63,835 bases of DNA, filler included, from Perkinsus olseni (GCA_013115125.1; 14 parts of 14 records of this genome joined end to end with filler, not necessarily neighbours in it), one strand, 5' to 3'. Shown: positions 3,301-58,433, numbered from the whole stretch's first letter. The notes: generated from the sequence alone by a model not told the origin. Translations and numbers: made by a program.

Positions 3301-4429
3301 GCGAGTCCTCGCAAGGCACAGAGGCCAACATCTCCAGTACACCAGAGTCGAGCCACCCGCAGTTTCAGGAGAATATCTGGGACGATGTCATCGATATCAC
3401 TGCCTTGCCTGTATGGGAAGAACCACAGCAGCCACAAATGGATGCTGACGCCCTGACTGCAGCGGTTACCGCGGAGTGCGAGGAGTACATGAAGCTTGGC
3501 CAGCATCAAGTAGATTATGATGTATTTTGGGAAGACGCTCGTGACAAATTCCCTAATCTCTATTTCGCTTCTCGAATAACCAAATATTTTACCCTATCAA
3601 CGGCCAGGTGTGAGTCGGTCTTTTCGCAAGCTAAGTCAATCATAGGGTTGAGAAGGGCGAACCTGAAGACAAGTACGCTGGAGCAGCTTCTGGTATGCAA
3701 GACGACACAGAAGATACTGTAACGCCGAGCTTTTATGGTGTGGTGGACAGTGACCTCCCCCATATATTATCACTAATGAACTACCAACCCACCCTCTAAA
3801 GACTGATACGCCCGACGTCTACGTTCAAAGCTGGAGGCTATCGCTCTCTTCGTTCGCATCGTATCTATGTTGGTATCATCGAGATAATCCTTCTCTCATA
3901 GTCGTGCACTGTATTGCATATTATCATGGCTAGTAGCTGCATGAGTCATGCAGCATGACATTACGCGCCCGATCTCGCTTGAATGGTTGTGTTGAAAGTC
4001 TATCGATGATGGGAGCGACGGATTTTTCGACGCGACAGGGTTACATGATGTAACTTGCATCTCAGTGAGACGATCTCACTGACCACTAGTTCTGTATCAC
4101 CAACTGAGCGCGACTCTAGATACGTTGGAATCAAAGCTCGATTATCAGAGACTTGAGTCACCTCCGTAAAGTGAGAATGGTGACAAACAACCTGCACTCG
4201 TCGTAAACAGCATGCAGGAACTTGTATCATACAGTGGGCTGAAAGACCGTCACAACGAGGAGTAATGCGTAATGCCTCAGAGTCAGGCTTTCAATCAGTT
4301 CGGGCTTTTATCGAACCCCCGAAGCCCGACCGAAAAAGCTCGAAAAAAGCTGCTGTTCGCCCGAAACCCGGCCGAATTGCCTTCGGGCTTCGGGCCCCGA
4401 CTTTGTCGGGACCCGCCTGCCGATCTCTG
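336..4429 (+). mobile_element. Full-length hAT-superfamily DNA transposon
   Basis: TIR CAGAGATCGGC (336-346) / GCCGATCTCTG (4419-4429); 8-bp TSD CCCAGGAG (328-335, 4430-4437); subterminal CCCGA/TCGGG motifs; internal transposase. Confidence 0.96.
610..3722 (+). CDS. hAT transposase, multi-exon (about 6-7 introns)
   Basis: BED zinc finger (CSKC...TSTLTRHQQACH), LPFTVTESEPF, QFDAW, SDSCQANIKAL, CFAHLLQLAV, ETRWNST, LLDPR, C-terminal dimerisation FW...FPNL...STARCESVFS...RRANL; GT-AG introns such as 1621-1723. Confidence 0.93.
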
Positions 4430-4542
4430 CCCAGGAGTACCTTCAGTGTCAACAGCAGCCTTGCTATTATCTTGCTGGTCACAACCACCTGACTCCTTAT
4501 CAACCTTAGTAGCGTCAGAGACCTTAGAAGAAGAACCTTGAG

Positions 4543-4642
4543 NNNNNNNNNNNNNNNNNNNNNNNNNNNNNNNNNNNNNNNNNNNNTTAATTAATTAANN
4601 NNNNNNNNNNNNNNNNNNNNNNNNNNNNNNNNNNNNNNNNNN
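4543..4642. other. Artificial contig spacer (first of 13: also 9178, 13788, 18392, 22969, 27532, 32092, 36646, 41192, 45734, 50269, 54803, 59320; each 100 nt)
   Basis: N44-TTAATTAATTAA-N44 repeated identically; puts stops in all six frames; contig lengths fall monotonically from 4542 to 4416. Confidence 0.98.
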
Positions 4643-4722
4643 TCTCGTTGTTCTCGTTGTTCTCGTTGTTCTCGTTGTTCTCGTTGTTCTCGTTGTTCTC
4701 GTTGTTCTCGTTGTTCTCGTTG
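4643..4722 (+). repeat. (TTCTCGTTG)n minisatellite at contig start
   Basis: Direct tandem repeat. Confidence 0.9.
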
Positions 4723-4730
4723 TTATTCAG

Positions 4731-5010
4731 GCCTACCACATGCATTCAATGAGATAGGACTCGTTGGTGGTATCATCATACTGTCTCTAGTTGCTCTACT
4801 AGCCCTTCATTGTATGTTATTATTGGTGCATTGTCAAACGTAATAATGATACCAACCTTCCGAAGCATCATCATGACTATAAGGTATCTAAGAGATACTA
4901 GATCCAAGCATGCTGTGACCTATGGTGATGTTGGTTATTATGCTTTTGGCAGGATTGGCAGTATGCTGGTTGATATATGTATCATACTAACTCAGGTAGT
5001 AGGCTACGAG

Positions 5011-5056
<46 letters not shown>

Positions 5057-10435: not shown

Positions 10436-13400
10436 AGAAGGTATGGCTCCGGATCAATGACTGGTGGATCTTGCTAAAAATCGCTCATGATCATTTCCCC
10501 CGGCCGAGTGGCATGCCTCAGGTGACCTGAGTCAGGTCCACGGCCAAACGTACTCCAGAATGGGAGCATTTCATTAGACTGTCCTCCGAGTACAGATTGG
10601 AAGATCCCGTTGATGGCTCAGTACCATTTTCATTATCATCAAGAGTGCTGTTGATCGTCGTCTCTTCTTGTTCCAGCCGGCTTTCACGGACTTCAAAGGG
10701 AAAACACCTTTTCTCTGATTTCTGCGTACGATCTGTGTTCATCAGTGTTCCGTGCATCGAAGACTTCACCAAGGGCGAGCAGTCACCCCGCCCATGTGTG
10801 GACTTCCCCGCGGAAATGTTGGACTCGGCCGTTCTTTTCTCGAAGTTTCGTGAGTGCAATTGAACTGCATAGGCCACCGTCACGGTAGCTCCAACTGTGC
10901 AACAATCAGCAATCTCATTATATCATACCGCACACAAGGCTTGGAGACTCCGCGGCTTTCTGCAGGTCGCTTCAGGAAGGAGTCCTCTGGGGATGCAGAA
11001 CGTGGAAAAGTCCTGAAAATAGCTGCGAACTCAAGACAGTGTCACAACAAGTTACCCTCAACAGGTCTCGGTCAGCTGAGCACGTAACGTTTCGGTGAAG
11101 CGAAGGTGTCGAGTGCGGTGAGTGGCGGGGTCAAACGGCCTGCCGGACGCGGCGTCAACGCTTCTTGAGACCACCACGTAAGCTTCCGTGACTTGAGGTT
11201 ACTCAACGCAAGTTCAGCAGAAGACAGAAAATGTGTCCAGTTAACCAATCTTTCGCCCTCAAACAAGCCTTGGGAAAGTTTCACCGCCTACTACTCCACC
11301 TCGGAGCGATCGTTGCACTACGAAACCGAATTGCCGACGGTCCGTCCGTAGAACCTGAGTTGTTCTCGCGAATCATCCAGAGAAAGATCGGCTCACCTCG
11401 GCTGCCTCCTTGTTTAACGGGTCGTTCGGGTTGGGTTCGAGAAAGAGATAGAGGAGACCGTAACTGCAGACGAGAGTTGCTGGAAGCAACGCGATAGTCG
11501 CGGAATGTTACACAACAGAAGAGATACTCAGAATTGGTTTCCAGTCTTCACGCAAAATGTTGAGGCAGACGTTTCCGTCGAGATCGATATTGGGATGATA
11601 AATCTTCGTTTCGCACTTTACCTGATAACCAATTGCCACCGTTAGTTCCGACCAGAATAATCCACGCGAACCTCGTTACTTTAGGGGCGTCGTGTGGGTA
11701 TAATGGCTTGATGTTAAAGGAGAATCGGTACTTTGCTGAGAAAGAGCTAGAGCATGAACACCACTTGCGAACTTTGGACCAGAACGCATTAGTTGTGCGG
11801 CGCAATTGCCGTAGAATTAGCGACGGAGCGGTACGACTAATACAGATTCGTGAGAGCTCTATTTACGATGCCGCACGGCGTGCCGAACTTACCTCCTTTC
11901 CAGAATCCCTCATCCGGGGAAATAGTTATAAAGAAATGCATCAGATTGTTGCTGTTGGGGAACTCAATACGGCACTGTGAAGGCAACTCCAACTCGTCCA
12001 ATTCTGACAAAAAAACGTTTCCTCCTTCACAGGGAACGACAGGGTGGGGCGATGCTGCAAAATTGACTAAGTCGGAGAGAAGAGGGATGATTCAATTTTC
12101 TTTTCATACTCGTTATAAGCTTCGAGCAAGCAAATAGTACTACAACCAGCTCCACAGCTTCACCCCGCAGTTGAGATTTGTCTAACTGACAGCGTACAGA
12201 GGGAAACAAATCAGCAGAGAAATGATCATCATTGATCATTTACTAACCACGATCTGCTCAGCCAGGAACAGCATATTCTGAATATACTATTCTGAGGGAA
12301 CCGCATGCAGGCAGGACGGGACAACGAAGAAGCTCGTGCATGACTACAGGTGGGATAAATCTTGCACGAAAGGTCGAACGAATCCCAGTCGTCCGAGATG
12401 ACCCGGCGGTCCTTTTGTGTCACAACTCCATAGTGCTTCATAGTACGAGGCCCGGGAAAGGTGCACGTTCCGCCGTGCCGTGTGGCACTCTTAGCCCATT
12501 GCTGGTCAGAGTCCAATATGTAATAATTGCCTACATTGCTCAGTCGCCAGCGAGTCTACTCTGCGAAAGGGTCTCTCAAAGATCGCGGACGTGGCTATCA
12601 GAAATCGCACGCTAAAGACTCTTTGAGGCCCATACTCGGCGTCACGACATCACAGCTTGTTACGACAAAATTCGACGCCGGGACCCTCGGAAAACCCAGG
12701 GGCACGGTAAAACCCCGAAAGCGCTATTCTAGCAGCGCCCACCCGCCTTCTACAATATTGTAGTGATGTTAAACTCATTCAGGCGGAGTCAGAGGCTTTC
12801 CGGCTTTCCTTGTGAATTTCGAAACGAAAATTCCTGAAAATTGCGAAACTTCACCAGGATTCAGCACTTCAGCGCTGTTTCATGCTACCAACCCCACAAG
12901 AAAAACTATACTGTTTCGAACGATGATTGATCAGAGGACTGCGTACCACCGCGCCCCCTGACATGCTAGCTCCAACTACTACCTTTTTGTAATCTGATTT
13001 CGCCAGGCTGCTGCTTCGGTTTCGTTGACGTACCGTTGGCTGCCCCCGGGGACTGCTGCTCCGCCCTTTTGCCCCGACCCACGCCGAAGACCTTATACAT
13101 AGGAAGCGGTGATACAAACTGCAAGCTGAGGACGTCATTCTCACAGAAGGCAAATTCACACAGCTTCACTTCACGCAAATGACCCTACGATTCAGAGGAA
13201 TGGCAGTGCAAAGGACAGTCAGGGAAACATTGAACTTACGCGGACAGTGCTTCAGTAGAGAGTTCACACGGGGATATGAGTCAGTTTCTACTTATCGCGA
13301 ATAATCAGCTGATACTGTGTCTGGTGATTCAGCACTTATAGACTTACTGCAGGTCGTGTTGGGTATTAACCACTTTCATCGCGATTATGAACTGTGCGCA

Positions 13401-14218: not shown

Positions 14219-14962
14219 TGTAATCTAACCCTCTTCCTATTCATCCACATCCCTCAGGTGGTGCTGGGACAGCATTATGTTGTTACCGCCGATCATCCCA
14301 AGGGTTGCAAAGGCGGTCCCGGCCCGGGGAAGGGTAGTTTGATACCTGTGCTATGGGCAGGTTCCTGCATTTTCAACATGAGGGGTTATAACAGAAGTCT
14401 GGTTCACCAAGAGAGCGCCGGGTTCATTCTTAAAACTAACATGCCTGATCATTCTGGTAGCTTGAAGTTGCAGATCAAGGTCGGAGGTGATATGGTACAC
14501 ACATTCGAAACGCCGAACATCAGCGTGGAGATTTCTGGTTGGGCTCACGGTGAGCCGCTCACCTGGGTTTCGATCATGGGGATGCACATTTTTGGTGGAA
14601 CCCAGCCTCCAGTACTAAACATTACCGCCCCAGTGATGAAGGGGCGGTACGTGCCGCCCTAGACTCTATATTCCATGTCAGTTTCACAGGCGGCCAGAGA
14701 GGTGACACTGATTGGCACACTGTGGCATACTGTCAGTATCTCGGGCTCCGCTGTGAGCAATGAGATGCACCTCTATGCTCACTCAGAGCAAAGAAGGAGC
14801 AGTGCTGTATCTTTTCAAGTCGATTTCAAAGTGAGCGTGGACAGGGTTGAAGAAGGATGGAATTTCCATGTGGGCTTTGATGTGAGAGGTTCCTGTGGAT
14901 CGAAGGAAAAGTCCGTGTATCACGATGCCGTGGATTTCATCAAGGGCGTTCTATACGGTTGA
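14219..14962 (+). pseudogene. Secreted beta-rich hypothetical protein with a damaged start; internal TAG at 14660 is either intronic or a nonsense codon
   Basis: Signal-like CNLTLFLFIHIPQVVLG lacks an in-frame ATG; ORFs 14258-14662 and 14675-14962 share a frame. Confidence 0.5.
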
Positions 14963-15890
14963 GCCTTGAGAGAAATCCGTGGAGTTTTGGTTGTACTTGA
15001 AACCATCGGGTAATTTTCACTACGTGTATCGGCCTTTGATTTATTGACCTTACATCATGAAGTTGAACGACGCAGTCATTGCAGCGCCGTTCGCATCTTG
15101 TTGATGATTTCACAATCATAAGCTACACTCTTACCAAAAATCCGATTTATGTCCCGACTCCTACGAATTGGCCGAGTCCAAGCATTAACAACTTGGGCGA
15201 TAATCGTTCAACTCGATTGTTGGATGGTTGACGGCGGCGTGCATTTGGTTGGGTTATAGTGCCTCGGACTTCGAGCCTTGAGGAACCTGCAAACCCTGCC
15301 AGGCTTACCCTGGCGCGAAACTCGGAGGCTGATTCTCGTTTCATCGCGCAGATTATGTGCGAAAGGACTGCAAGGACGACGAAGACACGACTTCGGCGAA
15401 GTCACTTCGCTGAAACCTTTTTGAAGGGCAGCGCTCTCAGAGCGCGTGAAGTGTCACTACTGAAGTAGCGCTTTTAGAAGTAATGGCCAAAAGCACACAA
15501 ATTAAATTGGTGTAAGCCTGAAATTGTAGTCCCAGATATTGGGGATCGATAGCAATCGAATTGTGATCGATGATATCGCTGAGAACCGGCATCGACAGCT
15601 CCCTGAGTAATCCTGTTGGGAGCCGGAAGCACGCACTGAGTTGTTGTTGACACTCTCAACTTGTCAACCCGAACGGCTGTCAACTTGACAGCCGTTCGAG
15701 TCCTATCTGCGGATGACTCAGAGTTACGCCCATTATCAGTAACCATGACTAATCAACACAATAACCAGTTCTTGTAACCAATGACCAATAGATACCTCAG
15801 ACTCTGAGGCTCAGAGGAATGAGTGACACTGTATAGACAGATAATAGGGTGAGTGGCAACTGGTAGAGTGACAACTGGTACACCCTCGGA

Positions 15891-16160: not shown

Positions 16161-18683
16161 GCCTCCACACGAAAATCGCGGCAAATTTGTGCACGAGTTA
16201 TTGCGGTAGCTAGAATTCCTTGAGGAAGATTGTGCCACATACGTGAAAAACAGCAGTGCAATCGCTCCTTTTGTGGAGTCCGGGCAATCCCATGGAGCAC
16301 TCCTACGGTTAAAGTTTAACCGTTAAACGGAGGCAGCTTGTTATCCAATGTTAAATGCGGGGACGCGAGCGGCGCCTTGGCGTGGGGACTGACCGGGATA
16401 CATCGACGTTTGCGCACGCGTGCAAGATACGAAGATACGAAGATAGATGCGAGATGCGAATTCCAGTGGAATTCGGCCCGTTCTATAACAATATCACCGT
16501 GGAATTATTCCACGGTGATATTGTTATAGAACGCGCCGGGGCTACTAGCCCCTACAGAGGTTAGGGAACCCATCTCGCGTATACGCGACCAAGACGTGTA
16601 GAGACTCTCGCGTTTCCTTATCTTTGTACGAAAGGGCGATTCGGGCAGACGCATGAGCGAGAACAGCGGATGAGCGCACAGCAATATTTCGAGAGTCGTC
16701 TACTTCGTGGAGATCCCCGCTGTACATTGGATTATGAATACGAGTTCTACGCCCTTGGCGTAAAGGAATATAGAGCGGTGGTCGAGAGCGCTGGTATCGC
16801 GATGAAGAAAACGAACTCTACGGATGGAGCGGCAGGCCCTCTGACGGGGGCCCACGAGCACACTCTCTGGTCAGATAGTCAGTATCGACCTCAGCAACTG
16901 CTTTTCCACAATGTCGATTACTCTCGTCGGCACATACTCGATGAGAGTCACTCTCAGAGAGTGACGTTGATGAGGGACAGCATGGTGGACCACGCGGGAG
17001 CCGGATAGGTAGCCGACCAAGTCCAACTGCTGCAAAAACTCATGCGGTCCACTCGCCTATGTCATTCCCGTTGATATCCTCGTGAATTGAATGACTGCCC
17101 TGCCGAGCCCTTAAGAGTGGAGGGGGCCAAGTATTGCTCAGATCATGATCCGGCAGCGGAAGCTTACTCAGCGTTCGAGAATGTAGCCATGAAAAGCTAC
17201 TAGGCGCAGTCCTCTGACTCCCCAAATAACTACACCATCACCGAAATACTGTTTTGCAACCTCAGCAAGCCTCTCTCCACGCAGCATCGGTTAGTGTGAT
17301 GATTACAATAAATTTATTTACTTAATAAATTTATTATAAATCTAATTAGAGGTAACCTGTAGCAGGTTGTTACACAATACTGTGACTACTCCGGCGCGAA
17401 GGAGGACCAATATCGGTATTATTCTCCTCACACGGACCTATGTTGGGTTCCTCCCGTGTTCCGGATCACCGATGAAAACGATAATCAATAAGGAGCATTC
17501 TATGTGGCATTGAGCTCGTTATATAGGATTGAAATTTTACCGCCGCTCACTGTACCAGTCACGAGCGTGACAGCCACCGGTGACACATACCAAGCCACAG
17601 CAAGCCTGCTTGAATTGAATTTCTTTGTGAGACTGGAGGCCCGCTATCTGCGAAGCTATTCTCTGCATTACGTCGAGTTAACAGATGCTTTCGGCATGTC
17701 GGGGAAATTCGTTTTACCGCCGATGCTCGGCTGCCCGGCGAGATTGATCTTACTAACTTGTACCAATTTTAGTGTTCACTCCGTTCGAGACTGAACTCAT
17801 CACTATCTCGGACTACAAAATGGACTAACTTCAAAAGTGGGGGTGATACCCCATGGAGTATCTCAGACCCACTATCAGTGGATCTATCGCGGAGGCCCGG
17901 GGCCAAGCCTCTTACAACCCGTCAATGCGTCGAGTAAGAAAGAGCGGTCCTTGCCCGGCAAGCGAAACAGTGCGCGTGCCAACGAATATACAGAGGCACA
18001 CTGAGGAGCCCTCAGCGGGGACAGAAAGAGACCGGCGAGTCAGCGACCACAACTGGGCGCGCAACCGATGCTCAGGTGCTATAAGCGAGATATAGTGCTG
18101 ACCACTAATTATCACCGCGTATTGATACACAAAAATGGGTAGGATCGAGTCCTAACCTCGCACAAGGGGGCAGCTGCCATGGCCTTATGCATAACAGATG
18201 CTACAGAATACTTCGAACGGCAAGCTCATGGTGTTAGACCAACCAAAGATCCAGAGGTAAGTAGGCCACGGAGTTGAGCTCCTTTACTTGAATTTGGTGA
18301 GACGAAAGCTGAAGTCTCTGTTGAGTTACTTAAGTGCTTCTTGTGTTGCGTAATAAAACTAATAACACAACTCGGGATGGATACCAACAATNNNNNNNNN
18401 NNNNNNNNNNNNNNNNNNNNNNNNNNNNNNNNNNNTTAATTAATTAANNNNNNNNNNNNNNNNNNNNNNNNNNNNNNNNNNNNNNNNNNNNGGGTCAAAG
18501 CCTCACAAATACGGATTTTCTCGCCCTTCACCATTTTCAGGATTCACCATTTTCAGGCGGGACCGGTCAAATGCAACTTGAGGCGACTCAAGGCCGGTTT
18601 CCAACACGTAGATAGAGTAACGTCATTCGGGGGCATAGTTGCGTATAGATCTCAATGATTGGTACAGTTCACTCAGCTTGCTC

Positions 18684-27003: not shown

Positions 27004-27420
27004 TCAAAATTTATCAGTTGTGAGAACCACAGTAGTCACACTTCGTTGCTCGACATCTTTTAGAGCAATGGTCGAGTAGCGTCCCCCTCCGAGGTCTAGT
27101 TCGATAAGTAGCTCAGCAACGGTCGCGTTACTCTCATGGCGATCATCGCACAGGACCTGGACCCAGGACATTGGAGGGAAACACTTCTAGAGGCATCCCT
27201 ACCACAATGACGATCTCAGTTCTCGACGGGTTAATCGCTGCCATTGCCTCAATCCCGGCTGGGAATGTACCATCAGCTTGCTGGCCAGGGTTGATGACGT
27301 TGAGTGACGTCAAGACAGAGTAACCCGGTTTGAAATATTTAGTTATTTGCCCAAACGTGTAGTAAGGTGTGTTCAACTGAATACGATGGGATGGCGACTC
27401 GCCATTGGCGAGGCCTCCGG
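27004..27420 (-). CDS. C-terminal exons of a glycoside hydrolase family 30 (glucosylceramidase-like) protein, partial
   Basis: TPYYTFGQITKYFKPG...IEAMAAINPSRTEIVIVV...RSVTTVV matches the GH30 pattern (YY..GHFSKFI.PG...AF.NPDG..VVVV). Confidence 0.7.
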
Positions 27421-28937: not shown

Positions 28938-29827
28938 CGACGGCGTCATTGATTGCTGCTCGCTGTGAATGGCAGTATGGTTAGATCATACCTTATGTTG
29001 AGCCGGGTATATGGTGAGTCGGTGGCATCGACGGGAGCACCCACGGTACTCCCAGTCGCCGAAGTGAGTAGTGAGATGTGCTAGCATCATTAGAAGAGAA
29101 TCAGAGAATCCCCGGGGCCCACTTGTTGGTAGAAGGCTCACTTAGGTCACGACTGCTCTCGCGTACTGTAGTCGTTCTCGTGAGTTTTGGAATCGATCTA
29201 CTAGAAACGCCCAGCAGGGCTGCAGGCTAGCTCAGACGGCGCCTTGCCGACGCATCAGCTTCTGTAGATGATAGCTGCAGATTTGACTTGCACCCATCGC
29301 TTGTGAGAAACATTCTTCGTTGGGTTAGGTCCGTTTATCACGTAGTATAATCGTGGTAGACACATCGAGCCCACAACTCCATTTTACTCGCAGCAGTGTC
29401 GGATCTGGCAGATGGAAATTTCCTTCTCGTGCTTGGAGGTGAACAGAAGTCGAATGAGCACGTAGAAGAGTGTCCGGGAGTCCCGGCGGAAGAGAGGACC
29501 CAGGACTAGTCCGCAACACATTGTCACTCCAGTTCTTGTGGGTGAGCGAACTGTGAACCAAATTGAACGCCATCCTTCGGGTCGTGCTGGTGCATGGCAG
29601 TTTGATGTCGATCCTTGGCCATCCTTATGACGGACTCAAGACAACTCGAGACTCTTTGCCGTCGAAAATTTTGACGGCAAAGAGTCTCGAGTTGTCATTT
29701 TGACTCAAAACTATACTAAGGTTCTAGGTGATGAGCTCGAGGATAAAGTAGATACCAAAATGGACCCATAGGAACGCTAATGACATCAACAACTTAATAA
29801 CAACTAATGGTTGACGGAGTCCACTTG

Positions 29828-36821: not shown

Positions 36822-37656
36822 CAGGGTGGTCGGTGGCTGGGGAGTTATAATAAACCCCGCCCCAAAAAACCCCAATTACTGCACGGGGAGAAATGCCGAT
36901 CCACCCCCGGGGGTCTGTTGGGCTTTCTGGAGCGCGCGAAGCGCGCGTAGAAAATAACAAGATATGCAAGATTTGCAAGAATCTCGCCCTTCGCACGGGT
37001 GCTATGCAAGATGGGTAATTCCCAAAATCCAAAGGAGAGGTCACCTCACCTCTCCATCACCTCTCAGAGGTGATATCACTTAGACTGTCGTATGAATATG
37101 GGGTTTATAGCTCTTAGACAGCGGGATGAATATGGGATTGATAGCTTATCTCGGTCGGGTTTGCGGGGCATGCGTTACTCTCAGTAACTTACTGATAAAA
37201 TTACCGGACCCTGAGATCCCAAGCTAAACCGAAGGGCTGCTCGGCTGTCAAACTGTTCAGCTCAGTCACAATCACTCGAACGCATAGCAACTGCACTTGT
37301 AGGAAATTTGTACGAGTGCAATTTCTACTAGAAATTGTTTGTGTGAGAATTTTGTGACTCAAAAACTTTCACAGTAATCCCACGCCGTAGCGACATGACA
37401 GTGCCACAATCATGACGACGCGGCTCGTGCTAGAGACTCTACAAAGGTATCTACGGTGGAGAATGCAGACATGAACGCGCGCGAAGCGCGCGAAGAAAAT
37501 GCAAGAAATGCAAGAGTGGCAAGATTATTGGCTAATGGACGTGTTTTCCCACGAAGCACCATTCACCCCGTAGACCCCCGGTATAAACCCCATAAACCAC
37601 GGAATAACTCCCGGGGGGGGGAGTTATAGAATAAACCCCCAAAACCGACCACCCTG
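36822..37656. mobile_element. Non-autonomous TIR element (MITE, hAT-like ends)
   Basis: 13-bp TIR CAGGGTGGTCGGT (36822-36834 / 37644-37656); paired subterminal motifs GGGGAGTTATA..AAACCCC, GCGCGCGAAGCGCGCG and GCAAGA repeats; no ORF; no TSD visible. Confidence 0.7.
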
Positions 37657-38994: not shown

Positions 38995-41548
38995 TTGATG
39001 TGGCAGATGAACAGAACGAGAGTGACAGACAACGTCCCACGCGTGCACACGCCGTGACGGTTTTTCATTGGCCGAGAACAGATGCACTATGGTGACACCG
39101 GGTGACAACAACCTTCGCGACTGCTGCGTACCATAGACCCAAAGGCCGCTCCTTGGCTGCTCTTTGTGCACATTTACTCTTTGTGCGTCCGATGATCTGA
39201 CTCCGATCGTCCCGGTAATCGCGTGCCGTGCACACTGTTAAAGGCATCCTTTCCACTAGCTCGCCTCGAGTGACTCGAGTCGAGTCCGGTTTCACTGTTC
39301 TTTGAGCGCGTCTCGGATAGCCACGCTGTACTGAGTTAAAAGTGAAGTAGTCATAGCAGCTACGCAGCAGCAGTGAACTCCACTGAGGGGAGGTAGTTGT
39401 CACAGTGACAACAAGCGACTATAGTACATGGGTGGAGCATGCATGCATCGTGAGCGTATGGGTGTAGCGCAAGTGAAAGCGTTCACGCTTACTCATTCAA
39501 CGTAAAGCCTGTTGGTTCACCCAACTACCTATCAGTGAGAGACTCCCGTTAATTGATCCAGCACAACTGAACACATTCCTTGTCTGAGTCAACTCTAACG
39601 CATAGTCTGGGTCTGTAGCAGGGCTGGCTACTTTCAGCCTTTGCGATCTGATTCGTCAGCTATAGACGATCTGTTCAATAATCGATGCGCGTGCAGCTCA
39701 ATATATCGATCGGGCAGTATCTGCTCGAAGTCACGAAGATAGCGCTTGTGTGACGACCGATGCGCTCCAGCTAACAAGCCCAGTAATTCGTCAGAATGGC
39801 TTGGCTTTACGTTGGTGCCTTTGCAAGTAGAAACAGATTATCGAACCCTGACGCCTAGGCTCGACCGCCGCCCACCATCCCCCTTGGCGAGATTAGCCGC
39901 CCATCCGATTGCAAGACAAGCACCTTTCCGATGTTTCTAGTGGTTCTGATGGATACACTGCGGGCATTCTACTACTGAACAACCTAGCCATGCTTGAAGC
40001 TCGAGTTTTTCAGCGAAAATGGACGTGCTCGATAGTCGACACTTACCCGTCGACCCTCACGTGCTCAGATGAGAGGCTTAGGATGAAGACGTGTGTTCCG
40101 GTGCTGGTCTCGAGCATGCCTCAGCTCAGTTCGTCGTATGTGCCAGTTTGAAGTCCAACGCCAACGACGTTACGCCACCGCCGGCTCAGTTACACGCGAA
40201 GCCCGCGCGCTAGCAGCTTGACGATGAGTTCTGTGTTGCGTGATTCCGTTGGAGCGAATGCCGCCATAATGGGTGCACAGAACCAACTCAGACAAGATGG
40301 TTCTACTCTTAAGCCTTTTGTAATCTATTTCGTGGATAAATCATCAAATTCGCCGAGATAAACGAAGTTGAAGGTCCGACTCTGGAACCGGTATATCTAT
40401 TTCGCACGTTGACCTTTCAATTTCGTGGTGAGACTCGAATTCCCACGCTGGTCCTTCGTAATATCGACTCATACACGATGGAACTTTCAAATTTTTGGCT
40501 CTGATAAAGCCAATTTCGAAAATGAGAAGTTCGATTGAAGTCTTCGTTTTCCGCCGCCTCTAATCGACTGCCGTCGTGGTCCCGTATGCATCGAGTACGC
40601 TCAAGTGTTCCCTGGATCAGACCATCGGGGTCTCGCGTGTCGATCATTCGACACAGAATGACATGTTGCCTCCCAGCGAAGCTCAAGTACTATCCGATGA
40701 TCTTGAATAATAATTTTGACCATATTGACGACATGAACGCTGAATGTTGATAAAACCGCCTCGCGTAGTGCATCAGTCGAATACTAATGTACTAATGGGC
40801 CGCTCGAAAAAAATCTAGCTCGGGCAAAGAATACCTACTGGGGAAACTAACCATACAACAACGGATGGAAAAAAGGTTGTTGATGATGTTGGAAAAATGG
40901 CGTTGACGAGAGAATGACACGACCAATACACTCGTGAGGCTGATGCTAACGAGGCTTCAAGACCCGGGAAACGGGTTGAGAGAGAAGCTTTGATACAGTA
41001 CTCAATAACACTGGACTGTCTTTGGGCGCTTCACGTCCGGCACAATCAACAGTCGAGGTTGGATAGCTTCGCTCGGCGAAGGAGGACTCGCCCGCTATCG
41101 CCATAAGCCTGCTCCTCCGGCACCGATGACAGACCGGCCTGAGCAGAATCAGGTGGCGGACCAGAGTCAGATGGCTGATCAGATTCAGATGNNNNNNNNN
41201 NNNNNNNNNNNNNNNNNNNNNNNNNNNNNNNNNNNTTAATTAATTAANNNNNNNNNNNNNNNNNNNNNNNNNNNNNNNNNNNNNNNNNNNNTGGTCTATC
41301 AAATTTATATTTTGTATCAAGATATTATTACATTCTCAATTCATGCATTTTCAAGTAATTTTCCACATAGGTTATACTTTTATACCGTTGGCCTTATTAT
41401 TCGCTCTTCGAGATTATAAACCACGTTCTCGTGGTCTGATAGTGTGAGGAATGTCGCAGGGCGTGGTCGACCACAACGATGGTAGATCAAAATGGTTGAT
41501 CTATAAGTCTGGGAGTACTTCTGAAGTGCACAATTATTCCAACTTCAA

Positions 41549-46893: not shown

Positions 46894-47837
46894 TTTTGAT
46901 GTAGTGTTTCTTCGTGCGGATCTTGTTTCAGCGCTGTTTCCAGAATTGAGTTCGGCGCAAGTTGGTAGAAGCTGAGTAGCCAGCAGGGGTCGTTAACGCG
47001 ACTCGAAGTATGGGAGTTATAGGCATTGTGCGCGACAATCGGAGAGGGCGGAGGATCATTGGGCTGCCCATCGTTGCTGACACGTCCCATCAGTGCTCCG
47101 TCATTGATACTGTATCAGTGATACATCACCGCCTTGGACCAAGTTCCTTTGTCACTCGCTCAGAGCCAGCTTAGCATATCCTATCCAATTCTCATGGAAC
47201 TCGAGATAGTGCCCAATCAGACTCTGATTATCAGAGTCAGGCCCGGCATGATCCAGATATCGCTTTTGCCCCTCGGAATGGCCAGGAAGCCGATGTCATT
47301 GTGTTTAGCGACGAAGTCGGCAGGAACGAACTAAACTATCGCAACTGCACAGCAAATAGAGGCTCTAGACCACACGATATGCTCGGTAAGAACTGTGAGT
47401 ATAATGATAGCTCAGAGCTATCGTTATACAACGTGTGCCCCACAGAGCTACATTAGCTCTAGTTCATTAGGCTCGGTTTAATCTACCTCATTAGCTACAT
47501 TAGCTACATGTGTATTAGCTCACATGATTGGTTTTGGGAAAGCAACCCCGCTGGATATCAGTGAAACAAGTTAAGACATATAAATCACATCACTCAGGCA
47601 GAGATGCTTGGGAGACCAGTACTGCCGGTACGATCGCGTTATCCTGAAAATCAATCCGATGAGGTCCACTGAGAACATACGATTCGCGATGAGTGTGTGA
47701 GGTGTACGGCGTATGAGTGTTTGAGTTTCAAGCTGAGTGGACCGATTACTCGGTTAGCTCGGATTATTCACGTGATGAACTGTGAATCTTTTGAGCACTC
47801 AAGCGCTAATGAGCCTGAGAGCCCTCGAACACTAAAC

Positions 47838-48413
47838 TTCAGACTCTGAAGTTCAGAGCAACCGCTATTGCCTGCCACACAAGCTACGGACCTCAAAGTA
47901 GTATCTCACCTCAATCTCACGTCCAAATGCCTTCCTCTCCCCGGTAATACACCGCCATTTCCTGAAGTAGGCTTTCAAAATATGCGTTGAGTTCCTCCAA
48001 GTCTTGAATACGGCAGCCAGCTCCGCGAGCTTATCGAACGACGCTCCTCGCTTCTTCGAGTTTAAAAGTAAATCTCGTTCTTCGAGAGCTTCCCCCATCG
48101 TCGAACAGGCCGAACCGTAGACGGCCTTTTTACGCCCCTTCGAAAGAGTGACCATAATACGACATATATAGCTCCCCTTGTTCCGTGTTAAATGATGCGG
48201 CAGCTTCGTAGGTCTGCGACGACTGCGCACGACTCTGCGAAGATCTTTCGGAGTACCACCGGCTTTCTTGATAGTTCTCATCACAGCCAGATCAGTGATG
48301 GCCTCCTCAGTAGATTTTCTTAGATTACCGTACACTCTTTGGCCATTTACAAACACGCAAGCGATGAGCTTTTTATTATTCACGTTGATCCCAGTTGGAA
48401 GAGGCTCGGACAT
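47838..48413 (-). CDS. Basic protein with two AP2-like DNA-binding domains, paralog A
   Basis: LPTGINVNNKKLIACVFVNGQRVYG...STEEAITDL and LPHHLTRNKGSYICRIMV...VYGSACSTMGEALEERD; 3' end approximate. Confidence 0.6.
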
Positions 48414-49985: not shown

Positions 49986-50369
49986 ATTTAGAACTAAAAG
50001 TCTCTTAGTAAGAGAACTTATATACCTACCCTATCTAACTGAATATAACTAACCTTAAATTAACTTGAACACTTGAGCCGATTCAAAACAGGCAATGTCG
50101 TATGCTCGCGGAGGAATCTAAGTTACAGACTGTAAACATCCGCCCCACTTCCGTTCCACGGGCGAGCGCGAAGATAAGGGTCGTCGCGCAGGGTAATACA
50201 GGTTTCGCCAACCCGGATTTCGCCAAAATGACACCTAACGGATTTCCAGACTCTTGGACATGTTTGTTNNNNNNNNNNNNNNNNNNNNNNNNNNNNNNNN
50301 NNNNNNNNNNNNTTAATTAATTAANNNNNNNNNNNNNNNNNNNNNNNNNNNNNNNNNNNNNNNNNNNNC

Positions 50370-50470: not shown

Positions 50471-51811
50471 GTGACGGTTGTTGGTCGGAGAGGCTTCCCC
50501 GAGGCTAAATTCACGAATAAGGAGCTGCGTGAGATCACTCGCATCGACGGTGTCACGGCGAGGGCCTTCAAGTCCGAGGTAACAGTGGAAAACGTCAGTT
50601 CCCCTCATCACATTTGCCTTGTTCAGCTAATAGGGAAGGAAGACTGGCATCTCGATCGCGCCAAGAAGCGCGGCTTGCATTTGGTTGAAGAGATGGCCGC
50701 TCATGGATCGCCGCCCACTGGCCGCCAGGTGACTGCTGTTTGCTGCAGTACAGGCTGATGCGATCGACAAGTGGAAGACAACTGCGGTAGATACTGCTGC
50801 GGTTCCATAGTGTCCCTAGGAGAGTGCTTACGAGTGCCGATGGCAGGACCCTGAAAGGGATCCTCGTGGAACATCCTGACGGCACAACTGAAGTGAGAGC
50901 GTTCAAGCGTATCCCACCGCGCTTGGCTGCTTCACCCTTCTTTCAGGCTATTCCCTGTAGCCTGCTGGTAGAGGCAGTGCGGTTCAAGGTGGTGCCTCCT
51001 GCGGTAACATCCCAGCCAGGCGTGGCATCTGATTGCGTCACGGATGACCTGCAGGTCGACTCGCGTAAGTGTGTTTTCTTCTGCGGTTGATACGATGGTT
51101 GCTGCTCAGGGACAGGCGGTATGGCACACGATGGAACGGGTAGAGTCCGCCCTGGTCTGTATCTAGCAGGCTGGGCCAAGAGAGGTCCGACTGGCATCAT
51201 CGCGGCCAACATACCGTGCAGCCAAGCCACTGCCAATGCTGGTAAGCCTTTTCTCTCGTGGGCATGGATGATGGTGTGTTGTCTGATGCCGGCCTATCCA
51301 CCACGGAATTGAATCGAGTATATTGTAGAATAGAGGCGAGTAACAGAAGATGCAGATTCTGCGTTGCAGAATCGGGTGAAGTGGAGTGAAAGAGTCGCTC
51401 TTTTACTCCACTTCACGCGACTCAACGAATCTCACCACTCTTTAAGAGTGTTGAGATCGTTGGCCGCAAAGAGCCGCACCCGACGGTAGAAGGTCTTTCG
51501 TATAACGGCTTCCTTTTGTGCGCAAGCGTCCCTTTCGCGGGGTGCGTGTGGCCCACTTGATTGGGGTTCGAAATTCAAATCGATTCAGAGTAGAGATAGG
51601 CTTGGAAGTTCCCGTGGAAACATTCTCCATTCCCATACTTCCGTTTAGTCGTAGAAGACATCTCGAAGTGGCGGATGCTCCACGGTGAAGGCGAAGAGGT
51701 GGATGAATCGGATGCTTGGATGGTAATAATTGATGAACACTCGCCCAGGCCAGCTCACGCTACTCCCTGCAGGTGCACGATATCCCGTCGGCTCGAGAAT
51801 GCAGATTCTAA
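50471..51811 (+). CDS. NADPH:adrenodoxin oxidoreductase (ferredoxin-NADP+ reductase), 3' exons
   Basis: [42 protein letters not shown]. Confidence 0.88.
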
Positions 51812-54730: not shown

Positions 54731-55340
54731 ACTACACCATTTCCAGACCTACTTAGTAAAACCCCAGAGCAAATTAGTAAATCCCCAGAGCAATTTAATA
54801 AANNNNNNNNNNNNNNNNNNNNNNNNNNNNNNNNNNNNNNNNNNNNTTAATTAATTAANNNNNNNNNNNNNNNNNNNNNNNNNNNNNNNNNNNNNNNNNN
54901 NNACTTCGGGCCAGCGGCCAATACAACACCGCAGTCACATTGCCTGGCACGCAAGCACACAGGCAATGTCTCCCATCACTCACCCAACAATCCACACGTG
55001 ACTGTCCCCCTGGAGCACTACCCGGGATCGCCAACCCGACAAACCCTACCGTTAAACCACCCGGTGGTTCCCACCGCAAGGCCAGCAATCCGAGGCCACA
55101 ACAACACTACTAGTGCTACACTGCTCCTGCGCTCAGGACACCGTTCAAGCAAGCGGAGGTCTAAGGATGTGTCAGAGAGCAAGCACAACACCCAAGTATT
55201 GCAAACACTATACTCCGCACAGAAGCATCACATGATGCGATGTGAGTCACATCCAAAGACACAAAAGCCCATCACTCCGCACACGAAGCATCGGTGGTCC
55301 TCAGAAACGGGAAGCACAACACCATGATCGCACCAGCAAG

Positions 55341-56436
55341 TTACGCAGGCGAGCCAAGAATTTCTGCAGCATGTCCTCTGCACTGCCGCTTTATCTCAGG
55401 AAGACCATACTCCTCCCAAGCTCGTGACCTCCAGTTGCCCGCAACCCGAACCTGCTCCGCCGGAACATTGTTAGCCAGCAGAGCGCAAGCACCCGAACGC
55501 CTCATGCTATGGCCGGTAATGTTAGGAATATCCCAAGACAAAACCTTCGAAGGAAACTCGGCAGATAAGAGGGCTCGTAGCTCCTTCCCGAAAGTGGCGC
55601 TCTTTAACGAAGGAAAGATACACTCATCCCCACCCTCGGCGCGTGTTCGACAAGCACTGACCAAATAATGAGCTATGCACCACGTCCTTCTACAAAATAT
55701 CCCTTCCGCACATAAGGTCTGCCGCTCCTCGCGAGAAGCAGTCTTGGTATCGTGGAAGATTACAGAGACCAGCAACCCCTCACAGCTCGACTCCCAAGAA
55801 ATGTCCGCACGAATATGGCCGGGCAACTGTTCGAAACGGAGCATGCTTCATGCTGCATGAAGATCGACGCCACCAACACGGCAGAACGAAGCTGATCACG
55901 CAAACCACCGGGAGTGAGCTTCATATCCGCGAGAAATTGAAGTCATTCCTGACATAAAGGCGCGGCCTGCCTCTTCGGCTTGTCCTTATCCAAAAGGATA
56001 CGATCAGCACTAGCCAGAGCTCGAGAAATCAGAGCCTCCCCTTCTGGTGGGATGCTCTTGCCAGTTCGAACCACACCCATCGTTCGCACCGCCGAAGTAT
56101 ACTCCCGTACTGTGCCAGAAGTGATCTACCGGCTCCCAGGGAGCCCCCTGTCAGCCCACGAATAAAAGAGACTAATCGCTCGGGAGTGACCGGGTTCGAA
56201 GGAGATATAGTACCAGACCCCATCTCGTAAAAACGCAGAGGTGTCTGATAAGAGGCCATAGTACTGGGTTTAAGAGAGGACTCCAGCAGACGGGAGTTGG
56301 CTCTCGCTCGATCCTCCGGAGTCGCCGCCGTCTCTGCCGCATAAACTCGAGCAAATGAGAAGGAAGTTGGGACTTCTTGGGCATCAAATACAGAGGAGCC
56401 TGTGCAAGACCCACAATGATTGTGGCACAATCCCAT
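55341..56436 (-). pseudogene. Tyrosine recombinase of the retroelement (frameshifts near 56130 and 55850, TGA near 55943)
   Basis: SSLKPSTMASY N-domain; FMLR, DTKT, ITGHSMRRSGA, AGNWRS.AW..Y catalytic set. Confidence 0.9.
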
Positions 56437-56484
56437 TCAATCGAGTTCCTCCCCGCCAAGTTGGCGGCGCCAACCCAAGCAGTA

Positions 56485-57340
56485 CTACGTCAGAAGCAGC
56501 ATGATGATAATACTACGAGCCGCCGTCAGGACAATGTAACAGGTTCCTGACAGGTACGTCCAGCCTGACGGGGCACTAGCAAGAACCGACGCACGGGCAG
56601 ATCTGCTAATCACATCAGCAGTAACATTGCGAATCCCGGCAATAGGGGGGGGGGAATCTCGCAGGGCTAGAAACCGACGCTCTAACGGATGCGGCTGCAG
56701 AGTTCTAAACGCAGAAGTCACATCGAATTCGGCCAGAGCCGATCCCGGACCCACTTCGCGCAGTAACAGACGTATCTGGGGAAGGCCCGGGTACAACGTA
56801 GCCGTCAGCATGCGTGACGCATGGTTGACCCCCGACGTCCTGTAGTTCTTGATGATACGAATCTTGCTGTGAGCAGGGTCTTTCCAGACGACATTGGCTC
56901 GGACGGCCTTCGCAAGAGCCAAGGATAGCTTCTCTTTCCGTGGTGAAAATGCGGTATCTCCATCCCACTGAGAGAGGTCAGGGAACCCAGTACCATCTAC
57001 TGGTGGGATCGACTCAGGAGGAAAAGAAACGAACACGTCAGGAGTGTTAGCCTCCCAGGGGTGAAGTGTAGAGCTCCCACCTACATCGTCGTGTTGTGGC
57101 GAACCGGCAAAAGAGGCGACCGGCAAGGGCGGGATCGGCCGATCAGTCTCCGACGCCCTCGCGCGCTTAGCACGATAACGGGCACGATTCTTGCACCTGC
57201 CCTCCACGGAGCGTTCCCCAGGAACCATGCGGAACCCAAGCACAACTAACGACGAACCTGGGGCATTGAACTCCACTCGCTGAACTCAAACCGGGAGTGC
57301 ATAAAAACGATCGTAAGTAGAGTCGGAATCAATTAAAGAT
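56485..57340 (-). pseudogene. Reverse transcriptase / RNase H with a large internal deletion
   Basis: KIRIIKNY..SGVN and LAEFDVTSAFRTL...ERRFLA join directly to IAGIRNVTADVISR (RNase H end); no YxDD. Confidence 0.85.
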
Positions 57341-57441
57341 GCGAGAAAACCAGCGCAGCTCAGTGCCGCTGCTTCTTGCCGGGAGGCTGCGGCTTTGAAT
57401 CCGCGCCATCTTTTTCATGGCTTCTCGGGGGCCACGGGCAC

Positions 57442-58433
57442 TTACGGATTTTGAGCAGCGGGCACTGACCACGAGTATGGGGGGCAGTCGCCTGGCGGGA
57501 CATGCTTCCCTTTCTCATCCGCACTTGGTGAAGATGTCGAAGTAGAACTTGTGGTGGCACTACCAGGGCTACTTTGCGCTCCAACGGCTGGGGTCAGCGT
57601 TCTCGTAGCCTCATTGAGAGCTTCCTGGTCCACCGCATTCCCAAGCAAACGGATGGTTGCCAGGGACAGCGAGATCTTCTCCCTTTCCGCCAAAGCGAAA
57701 GCTCTACCACTCAACGAGCGGCGAAAAGAAACATCACAACCCACCACCGCGGCTTCTCCATGCACCATGCAGATCCTGCATAGCTGCTGCACATATTGGA
57801 GGATCCAAGGACCCGCCTCGAGGCCCACGCTCACGTCAACACAAAGTAATACTGGTAGTAGTCCGTACAATAGTTCACAGAGGCGCTTGGGCTGACGACC
57901 GGCAGTCGCCGTTTCTGGAATCCACTGGATAGCACCGTTGACATCCAACACTGGTTTCTTGCCCAACGAAGCACAGTCAGCACCTAGTTTAATCTCCCGG
58001 TAGGTGGAAGGGGACTCGGCAATCAGCTTCACAGTGGCCTGGTCTGCTACCAGCCCCGGAGAAGCAGCCCCACCGTAACGCTTGGAGACCCTCCCCATGT
58101 ACTCGATCAGATCGAGTCGATCTGGCCGTACGCAGTTGGGCCTTGCTTCCCCAAGGAAGCCTTGGCCGCTTCCTGGAGAGCGGCTTCAACCCTCAGCCCG
58201 CGGACTAGGCGTTGCTGGGTTTGGTCAGCCGTCTCGTTCTCAGCCGGCGGGCAAAGGACGTCAACCACCGTCCTCTTCAACACCTCTGGCTTGGACACGA
58301 GGACAGGGATGTCCGATACAGCCATATCGATGGCCTGAAGCCTCTCTATGATAGCATCACGCAGAACCACTGGGCAGCTGGCTGGCATGATCGCGAGGAA
58401 GGCTTCGGTTCCTCTGGCGTTGGCGTTGGCCAT
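57442..58433 (-). pseudogene. gag-like ORF1 of the retroelement, frameshift at about 58105
   Basis: Two consecutive ORFs (58107-58433, 57442-58098) upstream of the RT. Confidence 0.65.

What the first reader, a model, noticed from the sequence alone, without database searches (positions are those of the whole stretch)
3936..58117. Window-wide excess of palindromes centred on one nucleotide, mostly A-C/G-T
Seen in many independent contigs: 3936-3954 GCTGCATGA-G-TCATGCAGC; 15670-15698 (14-bp arms, centre C); 15795-15809; 16305-16323; 29640-29696; 29698-29710; 30181-30195; 37056-37074; 37319-37337; 47220-47238; 47399-47429; 47835-47853; 55846-55862; 58101-58117. They sit in intergenic or decayed transposon DNA. 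Established: hAT transposases (Ac, Tam3) leave hairpinned flanks that resolve into inverted duplications around a central base. Inference: this genome records a pervasive hairpin-opening or snap-back end-joining process, possibly a characteristic break-repair mode.
Basis: partly seen in the sequence, partly recalled or inferred. Interest (0 to 1): 0.75.

Follow-up and report, generated by a model that had tools for sequence, protein, structure and literature searches.

The report
Transposon excision scars in Perkinsus DNA
The many short palindromes with a single central base in these Perkinsus (mollusc parasite) contigs are most likely scars left where a hAT-type jumping gene inserted and later cut itself out, so they give a countable record of past transposition.

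Summary
Perfect inverted repeats with arms of 7 or more bases and a 1-base spacer number 61. Markov shuffles give 4.0 +/- 2.2, and every other spacer from 0 to 12 gives 2-10.

The palindromes are not independent. 32 of the 61 form 16 overlapping pairs whose centres lie exactly 7 bases apart. Each pair is a 22-base unit: T(1-7), then the reverse complement of T(1-8), then T(2-8), where T is a local 8-mer. This structure occurs only for word length 8 (16 sites; none for 6, 7, 9, 10 or 11). It never appears in 40 shuffles at 0 or 1 mismatch, against 28 observed.

Three more sites have two separate palindromes that share a perfect 8-base word.

This is the scar expected from a hAT transposon: an 8-bp target duplication, flank hairpins with one complemented apex base, hairpins opened far from the tip, and joining through the complementary 8-base tracts.

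An intact hAT element with an 8-bp duplication lies at 336-4429. A close relative of a gene broken at 58102-58123 lacks the 14-base insert.

The organism is Perkinsus, 99% identical to P. olseni. I found no paper describing this.

The parts
514..535 (.). Perfect 22-base scar, T(1-7)+rc(T)+T(2-8), T=GTTCTCGT; lies inside the hAT element
3938..3959 (.). Perfect scar, T=TGCATGAC; inside the hAT element
10517..10538 (.). Perfect scar, T=CTCAGGTC
14542..14563 (.). Perfect scar, T=GGCTCACC
15389..15410 (.). Perfect scar, T=GACTTCGC
15795..15816 (.). Perfect scar, T=CCTCAGAG
16307..16328 (.). Perfect scar, T=GGTTAAAC
16942..16963 (.). Perfect scar, T=TGAGAGTG
27391..27412 (.). Perfect scar, T=ATGGCGAG
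30104..30125 (.). Perfect scar, T=ATGCTTCG
39265..39286 (.). Perfect scar, T=CTCGAGTC; upstream of the start codon of the secreted Q-rich protein gene
47215..47236 (.). Perfect scar, T=AATCAGAG
47837..47858 (.). Perfect scar, T=CTTCAGAG
56411..56432 (.). Perfect scar, T=CCACAATC
56453..56474 (.). Perfect scar, T=CCGCCAAC
58102..58123 (.). Perfect scar, T=CTCGATCT; frameshifts a coding frame, and a close relative's protein lacks the 14 extra bases
2462..2483 (.). Scar with 1 mismatch; inside the hAT element
4040..4061 (.). Scar with 1 mismatch; overlaps the next scar by 4 bases
4058..4079 (.). Scar with 1 mismatch; a second event at the edge of the previous scar
15292..15313 (.). Scar with 1 mismatch
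31560..31581 (.). Scar with 1 mismatch
37174..37195 (.). Scar with 1 mismatch
39187..39208 (.). Scar with 1 mismatch; upstream of the Q-rich protein gene
47104..47125 (.). Scar with 1 mismatch
49994..50015 (.). Scar with 1 mismatch
51350..51371 (.). Scar with 1 mismatch
55055..55076 (.). Scar with 1 mismatch
55840..55861 (.). Scar with 1 mismatch
2990..3041 (.). Unannealed scar: palindrome with 12-base arms, 12-base filler, then palindrome with 7-base arms. The two share T=CATATTTA (8 of 8)
16457..16533 (.). Unannealed scar: palindrome with 9-base arms, filler GCC, then palindrome with 27-base arms. The two share T=AATTCCAC (8 of 8)
37037..37074 (.). Unannealed scar: palindrome with 5-base arms, 8-base filler, then palindrome with 9-base arms. 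The two share T=GAGAGGTG (8 of 8)
29640..29710 (.). Probable complex scar: 28-base arms (1 mismatch, centre A) followed by 6-base arms (centre C). It fits the two-palindrome rule only if two base changes are allowed
   Evidence: parsing by eye
328..4437 (+). hAT transposon: 4094-bp element at 336-4429, 11-bp terminal inverted repeats CAGAGATCGGC, and an 8-bp target duplication CCCAGGAG at 328-335 and 4430-4437
3066..3722 (+). Open frame carrying the hAT C-terminal dimerisation domain (PF05699, 29.1 bits; cut-off 21.4)
565..1683 (+). Open frame with sub-threshold zf-BED and Hermes DNA-binding-domain matches, and BED/ZBED1-like neighbours in the Atlas
57442..58712 (-). Perkinsus gene of unknown function, split into two frames (201 and 247 codons) by the scar at 58102-58123

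Best explanation
The palindromes are excision scars of a hAT-type transposon.

- Step 1 (inferred from the anatomy). An element inserts and duplicates an 8-bp target word T.
- Step 2 (established for Ac/Ds and Hermes, inferred here). On excision each flank is sealed into a hairpin whose apex is one unpaired base, the complement of the flank base next to the element. The left flank then reads T1-7, complement of T8, then the complement of T7 back to T1. The right flank is the mirror image.
- Step 3 (inferred). Host enzymes open the hairpins far from the tip. The three unannealed sites show distances of 5 to 27 bases. This leaves 3' tails that carry inverted copies of T.
- Step 4 (inferred). The two tails are complementary over exactly 8 bases. 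They anneal, flaps are trimmed and gaps are filled.

The result is T(1-7) + reverse complement of T + T(2-8). This is a net 14-base insertion containing two overlapping 15-base palindromes whose centres lie 7 bases apart. When the ends are joined without annealing, two separate palindromes with filler between them result.

The A-C/G-T centre bias reflects the target preference (T at position 2, A at position 7, G/C at positions 1 and 8).
For: Enrichment:
- Spacer-1 palindromes number 61 against 4.0 +/- 2.2 expected.
- 41 of 61 have arms of exactly 7.

Pairing and the 8-base word:
- 32 of the 61 form 16 pairs with centres exactly 7 apart.
- The 22-base structure is found at 16, 12, 11 and 22 sites with 0, 1, 2 and 3 mismatches. 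Forty Markov-3 shuffles give means of 0, 0, 0.65 and 6.15.
- A perfect structure exists only for word length 8: 16 sites, against 0 for lengths 6, 7, 9, 10 and 11, and 3 for length 5.
- Of 18 sites with the inner 6-mer geometry, 16 also have both outer bases complemented.
- Three separated palindrome pairs share a word at 8 of 8 positions.

The hAT link:
- An intact hAT element with an 8-bp duplication and CAGAG... termini lies at 336-4429 and carries a Dimer_Tnp_hAT domain.
- hAT is the only transposase family found among the 62 open frames scanned.
- Across 32 target words, T2/A7 occurs at 26 of 64 positions (p=0.004) and G/C at 45 of 64 end positions (p=0.001). This matches the Hermes 5'-nTnnnnAn-3' preference (PMC10368747, passage).

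Presence/absence:
- Protein P0122 reads straight through the site as ...GQIEYM....
- The window reads ...GQIDSI-stop, then resumes in another frame at ...LIEYMG....

Literature:
- Ac/Ds footprints are palindromic insertions centred on the complement of the base next to the element, with arms up to 20 nt in yeast and frequent microhomology (PMC5873905, passages; PMC1978519, passages).
Against: - No allele still occupied by an element was seen.
- Only one hAT copy and no short non-autonomous copies were found. The relaxed scan gave 1 hit, against 0-4 in 5 shuffles. About 40 scars therefore stand against a single element.
- Classical short footprints are not enriched. Spacing 8 gives 0 and spacings 9-13 give 1-5 each. 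Every experimental hAT system I read about gives heterogeneous footprints, so this uniformity is unexpected.
- The target preference is weak (41% against 25%).
- 14 of the 61 palindromes fit neither the paired nor the decayed form, against about 4 expected by chance.
- The transposase frames are split. The BED and Hermes-domain matches are below Pfam cut-offs. A sequence search of solved structures with two of the frames found no transposase.
- The DNA behind P0122 was not seen.
- The one-base offset of the first nick is recalled (Zhou et al. 2004), not read.
Confidence: 0.8

Rival explanations
1. The scars come from another cut-and-paste superfamily that also seals flanks into hairpins and makes 8-bp duplications. 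The leading candidate is a Mutator-like element (Muta1 makes 8-9 bp duplications).
For: MULE, hAT, Transib and RAG all form flank hairpins, and Muta1 has 8- or 9-bp duplications (PMC5499845, passages). The scars themselves carry no element sequence, so the superfamily is inferred.
Against: - No MULE or other transposase domain was found in the 62 open frames scanned, whereas hAT is present with an 8-bp duplication.
- No scars were found for word length 9.
- More than 90% of Muta1 excisions in yeast were precise (PMC5499845).
- The target words fit nTnnnnAn.
Confidence: 0.08
2. The palindromes arise from transposon-independent repair or replication errors. Examples are snap-back synthesis on a 3' tail (polymerase theta-type templated insertion) or template switching at stalled forks, producing inverted copies of local sequence.
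For: Such processes do make short inverted duplications (recalled). The fillers in two unannealed scars look locally templated.
Against: - They predict variable lengths and a loop of several bases.
- They do not predict a fixed 8-base word (16 against 0 for neighbouring lengths).
- They do not predict a 1-base centre (spacers 2-12 are near chance).
- They do not predict complemented outer bases at 16 of 18 sites.
- They do not predict a forward-reverse-forward triple.
Confidence: 0.04
3. The palindromes are artefacts of library preparation, amplification or short-read assembly.
For: Contig ends share 72-76-base overlaps typical of a de Bruijn short-read assembly. No reads were available to check.
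Against: - I know of no artefact that copies exactly 8 bases as forward-reverse-forward inside contigs (this rests on recall).
- Sites decay gradually: 16, 12, 11 and 22 at 0-3 mismatches. That looks like age, not error.
- The palindromes are absent from the three contigs 8, 10 and 14 (count 0 each). Contig 14 holds the Peptidase_S8 and aldo/keto reductase frames, and contig 8 only a weak cytidylyltransferase-like match.
- The contig with the UTP7/BING4 gene has 1 palindrome and the contig with the SepSecS frame has 3.
- An independent gene model (P0121) carries the same sequence, while P0122 lacks the insert.
Confidence: 0.05
4. The palindromes are due to chance or base composition, or are functional palindromic motifs such as protein-binding sites or RNA hairpins.
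For: One palindrome (356-370) lies among the subterminal repeats of the hAT element and may be an element motif. About 4 of the 61 are expected by chance.
Against: The shuffles reject chance. The arms are all different sequences, so there is no shared motif. The 8-base linkage between the two palindromes of a pair has no role in a binding site.
Confidence: 0.02

Closest known systems
Ac/Ds excision footprints in Saccharomyces cerevisiae and Arabidopsis (hairpin model of Coen; Yu et al. 2004 and Lazarow et al. 2012, as cited in PMC5873905)
   Same: Palindromic P-nucleotide insertions are centred on the complement of the base next to the element. Arms reach 20 nt in yeast. Joining frequently uses microhomology (PMC5873905 and PMC1978519, passages).
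   Different: Those are heterogeneous footprints recovered experimentally from one donor site. Here the scars are a natural, many-site record dominated by one product, the full 8-base annealed form. Short footprints are not enriched.
Hermes / Ac-family hAT transposition chemistry and target choice
   Same: Both show an 8-bp target duplication and a 5'-nTnnnnAn-3' preference (PMC10368747, passage). Both form flank hairpins (PMC5499845). The element at 336-4429 has CAGAG... termini and a hAT dimerisation domain.
   Different: The preference here is weak (26 of 64). Activity of the Perkinsus transposase is not shown. The Buster-type nnnTAnnn pattern (PMC3499496) is not seen (1 of 32).
P nucleotides at V(D)J coding joints, and Transib
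   Same: A flank hairpin is opened off-centre, leaving an inverted copy of the flank.
   Different: As I recall, those hairpins have no offset and give even palindromes. Here spacer 0 is not enriched (5 against 3.4-3.7), and the tracts are much longer.
Mutator-like element Muta1
   Same: It forms flank hairpins and makes 8-9 bp duplications (PMC5499845).
   Different: Its excision in yeast is mostly precise. No MULE domain was found in the window, and no scars of word length 9.
Introner elements of Amoebophrya (a related alveolate)
   Same: They combine short inverted repeats (8-20 nt) with short direct repeats (3-5 nt) and spread through genes (PMC7789003, passages).
   Different: Those are whole introns belonging to sequence families, with the repeats at their ends. 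The scars here are 22-base structures made purely of local target sequence.

Membership tests
hAT excision footprint | Remnants of both copies of an 8-bp target-site duplication | tested here: met
   A perfect structure exists only for word length 8 (16 sites; 0 for lengths 6, 7, 9, 10, 11). Three separated pairs share a word at 8 of 8 positions.
hAT excision footprint | Inverted (P-nucleotide) copies of the flank, centred on the complement of the base that adjoined the element | tested here: met
   Both outer bases are complemented at 16 of 18 sites with the inner geometry. The feature is defined in PMC5873905.
hAT excision footprint | hAT elements with 8-bp duplications in the same genome | tested here: met
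   The element at 336-4429 has the duplication CCCAGGAG, 11-bp terminal repeats, and PF05699 at 29.1 bits (cut-off 21.4).
hAT excision footprint | Target words follow the Ac/Hermes preference nTnnnnAn | tested here: inconclusive
   26 of 64 positions fit, against 25% expected (p=0.004). The bias is significant but weak.
hAT excision footprint | Empty and occupied alleles exist at the same site | tested here: inconclusive
   An allele or relative without the 14-base insert is seen at protein level (P0122). No occupied allele was seen. The DNA collections that could show one were closed or hold only prokaryotes.
hAT excision footprint | Scar produced by observed excision | not testable with these tools
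   This needs an experiment.
hAT transposon (element 336-4429) | C-terminal hAT dimerisation domain | tested here: met
   PF05699, E=8.5e-07, above the cut-off.
hAT transposon (element 336-4429) | BED zinc finger and RNase-H-like catalytic core | tested here: inconclusive
   zf-BED (E=0.024) and DBD_Tnp_Hermes (E=0.016) are below the cut-offs. The Atlas neighbours are BED/ZBED1 RNase-like clusters, scoring 0.92-0.93. A sequence search of solved structures with two frames gave no transposase. No fold was predicted.
Polymerase-theta-type snap-back templated insertion | Variable insert length, a loop of several bases, and no fixed unit | tested here: not met
   The unit is fixed at 8 bases and the centre is 1 base. 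Spacers 2-12 are near chance.
RAG/Transib-type hairpin scars (even palindromes) | Palindromes without a central base | tested here: not met
   Spacer 0 gives 5 observed against 3.4-3.7 expected. The even-palindrome expectation is recalled.

The most novel reading that the evidence does not exclude
In Perkinsus, nearly every hAT insertion-excision cycle is repaired in one way: long hairpin opening followed by annealing of the two 8-base inverted target copies. Each cycle therefore leaves a recognisable +14-base scar.

This would imply an unusual hairpin-processing and end-joining repertoire, with little or no opening near the apex. It would also make transposon cycling a major, countable source of indels.

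These contigs carry about 0.67 scars per kb. The flat decay series (16, 12, about 10, about 16) suggests roughly one scar per 200 point substitutions.

The scars occasionally frameshift genes, which annotation (or possibly the cell) bridges with tiny GT-AG introns.
Probability: 0.4. Interest if true: 0.75.

Novelty: new variant of a known kind. Interest (0 to 1): 0.62.

Why it matters
Cut-and-paste transposons normally leave cryptic, heterogeneous footprints, so their past activity cannot be counted from a genome.

Here the scar is a fixed, self-identifying 22-base structure. That would allow four things in an alveolate parasite whose repair pathways are little known:
- insertion-excision events could be counted and dated by their decay;
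- target preference could be measured without any element present;
- the way the host opens and joins DNA hairpins could be inferred;
- frameshifted genes and gene models that hide a scar inside a false intron could be flagged.

Tried and rejected
Chance or composition. Rejected by Markov-1 and Markov-3 shuffles.

Presence/absence among the window's own contigs. A self-BLAST found no paralogous copies, only end overlaps and simple repeats.

Further hAT or miniature copies.
- The strict scan found only the element at 336-4429.
- The relaxed scan gave 1 unconvincing hit, against 0-4 in 5 shuffles.
- The terminal-repeat word with 1 mismatch gave 4 matches against 1.49 expected, of which 2 are the element's own ends.

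Classical short footprints. Not enriched, and the listed cases look like chance.

Removing scars in silico to look for hidden genes.
- Only the site at 58102-58123 merged two long frames (247 and 201 codons, giving 418).
- At the other 15 perfect sites the longest frame through the site changed by at most about 40 codons in either direction.
- In the per-contig test the largest other gain was 229 to 269 codons, in the contig holding 39187-39208. That site lies upstream of the real start codon.

Naming the transposase.
- The Pfam BED and Hermes-domain hits were below threshold.
- A sequence search of solved structures found nothing relevant.
- No structure was predicted, because a single sequence without an alignment was unlikely to add anything.

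Names and sources of P0121-P0123.

Yu et al. 2004 is not held in the library.

Not used: complex prediction, the RNA tools, and the phage, plasmid and E. coli collections (not relevant to a protist). The one genome-contig scan was not spent, because that collection holds only bacteria and archaea.

Full report
WHAT THE WINDOW IS

It consists of 14 contigs of 4416-4542 bases, 62,535 bases in all. They are sorted by length and joined by N44-TTAATTAATTAA-N44 linkers.

An exon-like open frame at 20980-21555 is 99% identical to a Perkinsus olseni UTP7/BING4 protein and 92% identical to the P. marinus one. A second gene matches another P. olseni protein. The DNA is therefore from Perkinsus, an alveolate parasite of molluscs.

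Contig ends share 72-76-base overlaps, as in a short-read de Bruijn assembly.

- All 14 listed palindromes are present. Twelve are perfect and two have one mismatch.
- Perfect inverted repeats with arms >=7 number 61 at spacer 1, against 2-10 at every other spacer from 0 to 12.
- 100 Markov-1 and 100 Markov-3 simulations give 4.0 +/- 2.2 at spacer 1, with a maximum of 12.
- Arms of exactly 7 account for 41 of the 61.
- The palindromes lie in 11 of the 14 contigs.
- The A-C/G-T centre is the commonest class, at 21 of 61 against a 14% background. It is not a majority. The centre base is G or C in 44 of 61.

THE KEY ANATOMY

The palindromes come in pairs.
- 32 of the 61 form 16 overlapping pairs whose centres are exactly 7 bases apart. 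No other short spacing recurs.
- Each pair is a 22-base unit: T(1-7), the reverse complement of the 8-mer T, then T(2-8).
- Scoring every position of the window for this unit gives 16, 12, 11 and 22 sites with 0, 1, 2 and 3 mismatches.
- Forty Markov-3 shuffles give means of 0, 0, 0.65 and 6.15.
- The perfect structure exists only for a word of 8 bases: 16 sites, against 0 for lengths 6, 7, 9, 10 and 11, and 3 for length 5.
- Among 18 sites where only the inner 6-mers are required to match, 16 also have both outer bases complemented.

Of the 29 palindromes without a perfect partner:
- 7 match the expected third arm at 6 of 7 positions and 4 at 5 of 7. The background rates are 0.3% and 3.1%.
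- Four others belong to three sites where two separate palindromes share an 8-base word at 8 of 8 positions. Their arms are 12+7, 9+27 and 5+9 bases, with 12, 3 and 8 bases of filler between them.
- Fourteen remain unassigned, against about four expected by chance. One of these (356-370) lies in the subterminal repeats of the transposon described below.

WHAT IT IS

The structure is the one predicted for a hAT transposon that inserted and later excised.
- Insertion duplicates an 8-bp target.
- Excision seals each flank into a hairpin whose apex is the complement of the base next to the element. This centring on the complement is described for Ac/Ds footprints (PMC5873905, passages). The one-base offset of the first nick that causes it is recalled from Zhou et al. 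2004, which I did not read.
- If the hairpins are opened at least 8 bases from the tip, the two 3' tails carry complementary inverted copies of the 8-mer.
- Annealing of the tails, flap removal and fill-in give exactly T(1-7)+rc(T)+T(2-8), a net gain of 14 bases.
- The three unannealed sites show the same intermediates joined directly.

The opening distance and the annealing step are inferences.

INDEPENDENT SUPPORT

(a) Contig 1 holds a 4094-bp element at 336-4429.
- It has 11-bp terminal inverted repeats (CAGAGATCGGC) and an 8-bp duplication (CCCAGGAG).
- It has an open frame with the hAT dimerisation domain above Pfam's cut-off.
- It has weak BED and Hermes DNA-binding-domain signals.
- No other transposase family was found in the 62 open frames scanned.

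(b) The 32 target words are enriched for T at position 2 and A at position 7 (26 of 64, p=0.004), and for G/C at the ends (45 of 64, p=0.001). This matches the Hermes nTnnnnAn preference (PMC10368747, passage). It also explains the A-C/G-T centres.

(c) There is a presence/absence case.
- The scar at 58102-58123 splits a coding frame into pieces of 201 and 247 codons. Removing 14 bases in silico gives 418 codons.
- A library protein, P0122, is nearly identical on both sides and reads straight through as ...GQIEYM.... The window reads ...GQIDSI-stop, then resumes in another frame.
- P0121 is 100% identical to the window and skips the scar with a 41-base GT-AG interval.

WHERE THE SCARS LIE

- Only 1 of the 16 perfect scars merges two long frames when removed. 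The rest appear to lie in non-coding DNA.
- Palindromes are absent from contigs 8, 10 and 14 (0 each). Contig 14 holds the Peptidase_S8 and aldo/keto reductase frames.
- The contig with the UTP7/BING4 gene has 1 palindrome and the contig with the SepSecS frame has 3.
- They are dense in contig 4, with 15 palindromes in 4.5 kb.
- They are also dense inside the hAT element itself and upstream of a small secreted Q-rich protein gene.
- Counting the 39 sites with up to 2 mismatches (0.65 expected by chance) plus the 3 unannealed ones gives 0.67 scars per kb.
- The roughly flat series across mismatch classes is what steady formation plus neutral decay would give. By inference only, it implies about one scar per 200 substitutions.
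- These small contigs may not represent the whole genome.

AGAINST THE READING

- No occupied allele was seen, and no miniature element was found.
- Only one hAT copy stands against about 40 scars.
- Classical short footprints are not enriched, unlike the heterogeneous footprints reported experimentally (PMC5873905, PMC3499496, PMC1978519; passages).
- The target bias is weak.
- Fourteen palindromes are unexplained.
- The transposase frames are broken, and only the dimerisation domain passes a curated threshold. Searches of solved structures by sequence found no transposase.
- Reads were not available, so an artefact cannot be formally excluded.

RIVALS

- Another hairpin-forming superfamily with 8-bp duplications, such as MULEs (PMC5499845), is possible. 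It is not favoured: no such transposase was found, there are no 9-base scars, and Muta1 excises mostly precisely.
- Snap-back or template-switch repair explains neither the fixed 8-base unit nor the 1-base centre.
- Chance is excluded.

NOVELTY

hAT footprints with palindromic insertions are well known. A natural, many-site record dominated by one full-length annealed product is not something I could find. I searched for:
- Perkinsus with palindromes (17 papers);
- Perkinsus with hAT and transposase (6 papers);
- P. olseni with genome and transposable elements (6 papers);
- transposon footprints combined with palindromic, genome-wide and hAT.
None was relevant.

One P. marinus paper mentions transposable-element-dependent integration of transfected plasmids (PMC8062965, passage).

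I consulted no supplementary files.

Noticed in passing
58060-58170 (minus strand): Gene model P0121 is 100% identical to the window. It bridges the frameshifting scar with a 41-base GT...AG interval, dropping 9 codons. This may be an annotation patch or a real tiny intron. No RNA evidence was available.
   Followed up: partly
57756-57815: The relative P0122 reads this stretch in a different frame from the window's open frame (segment RVLGSSNM...WCME). Its own source sequence therefore probably carries other indels, possibly scars of its own.
   Followed up: partly
4040-4079: Two one-mismatch scars overlap by 4 bases. A second insertion-excision apparently hit the edge of an earlier scar. Contig 4 (13888-18391) holds 15 of the 61 palindromes. 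Both observations suggest local re-insertion.
   Followed up: partly
1-76 with 63759-63834; 50370-50441 with 54731-54802; 36746-36818 with 38135-38207; 27820-28022 with 31888-32091: Contig ends repeat other contig ends or internal stretches over 72-204 bases at 97-100% identity. These are unresolved repeats or graph overlaps of a short-read assembly.
   Followed up: no
38548-38994 (minus strand): A small gene for a secreted-looking, glutamine-rich protein (signal-peptide-like start MTRVAYLLLC...). It is 70% identical to a P. olseni hypothetical protein with a different repeat number. Three scar-like sites lie just upstream of it.
   Followed up: partly
29640-29710: A palindrome with 28-base arms and one mismatch, followed by a palindrome with 6-base arms. 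The pair fits the two-palindrome scar rule only if two base changes are allowed. A 7-base direct repeat (GACTCAA) also brackets the large palindrome.
   Followed up: partly
whole window (e.g. 16055, 23308, 22369, 21562, 7416): Palindromes with a 3-base spacer and arms >=6 are also in excess (36 against about 12). Only 9 of them are decayed 22-base scars; the rest are unexplained.
   Followed up: partly
24714-25253 (minus strand): An open frame with a SepSecS domain (selenocysteine synthesis). The organism therefore has selenoprotein machinery.
   Followed up: no
4643-4724, 5006-5065, 9085-9177: Trinucleotide-period simple repeats in contig 2 match each other in direct and inverted orientation, including at both contig ends.
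   Followed up: no
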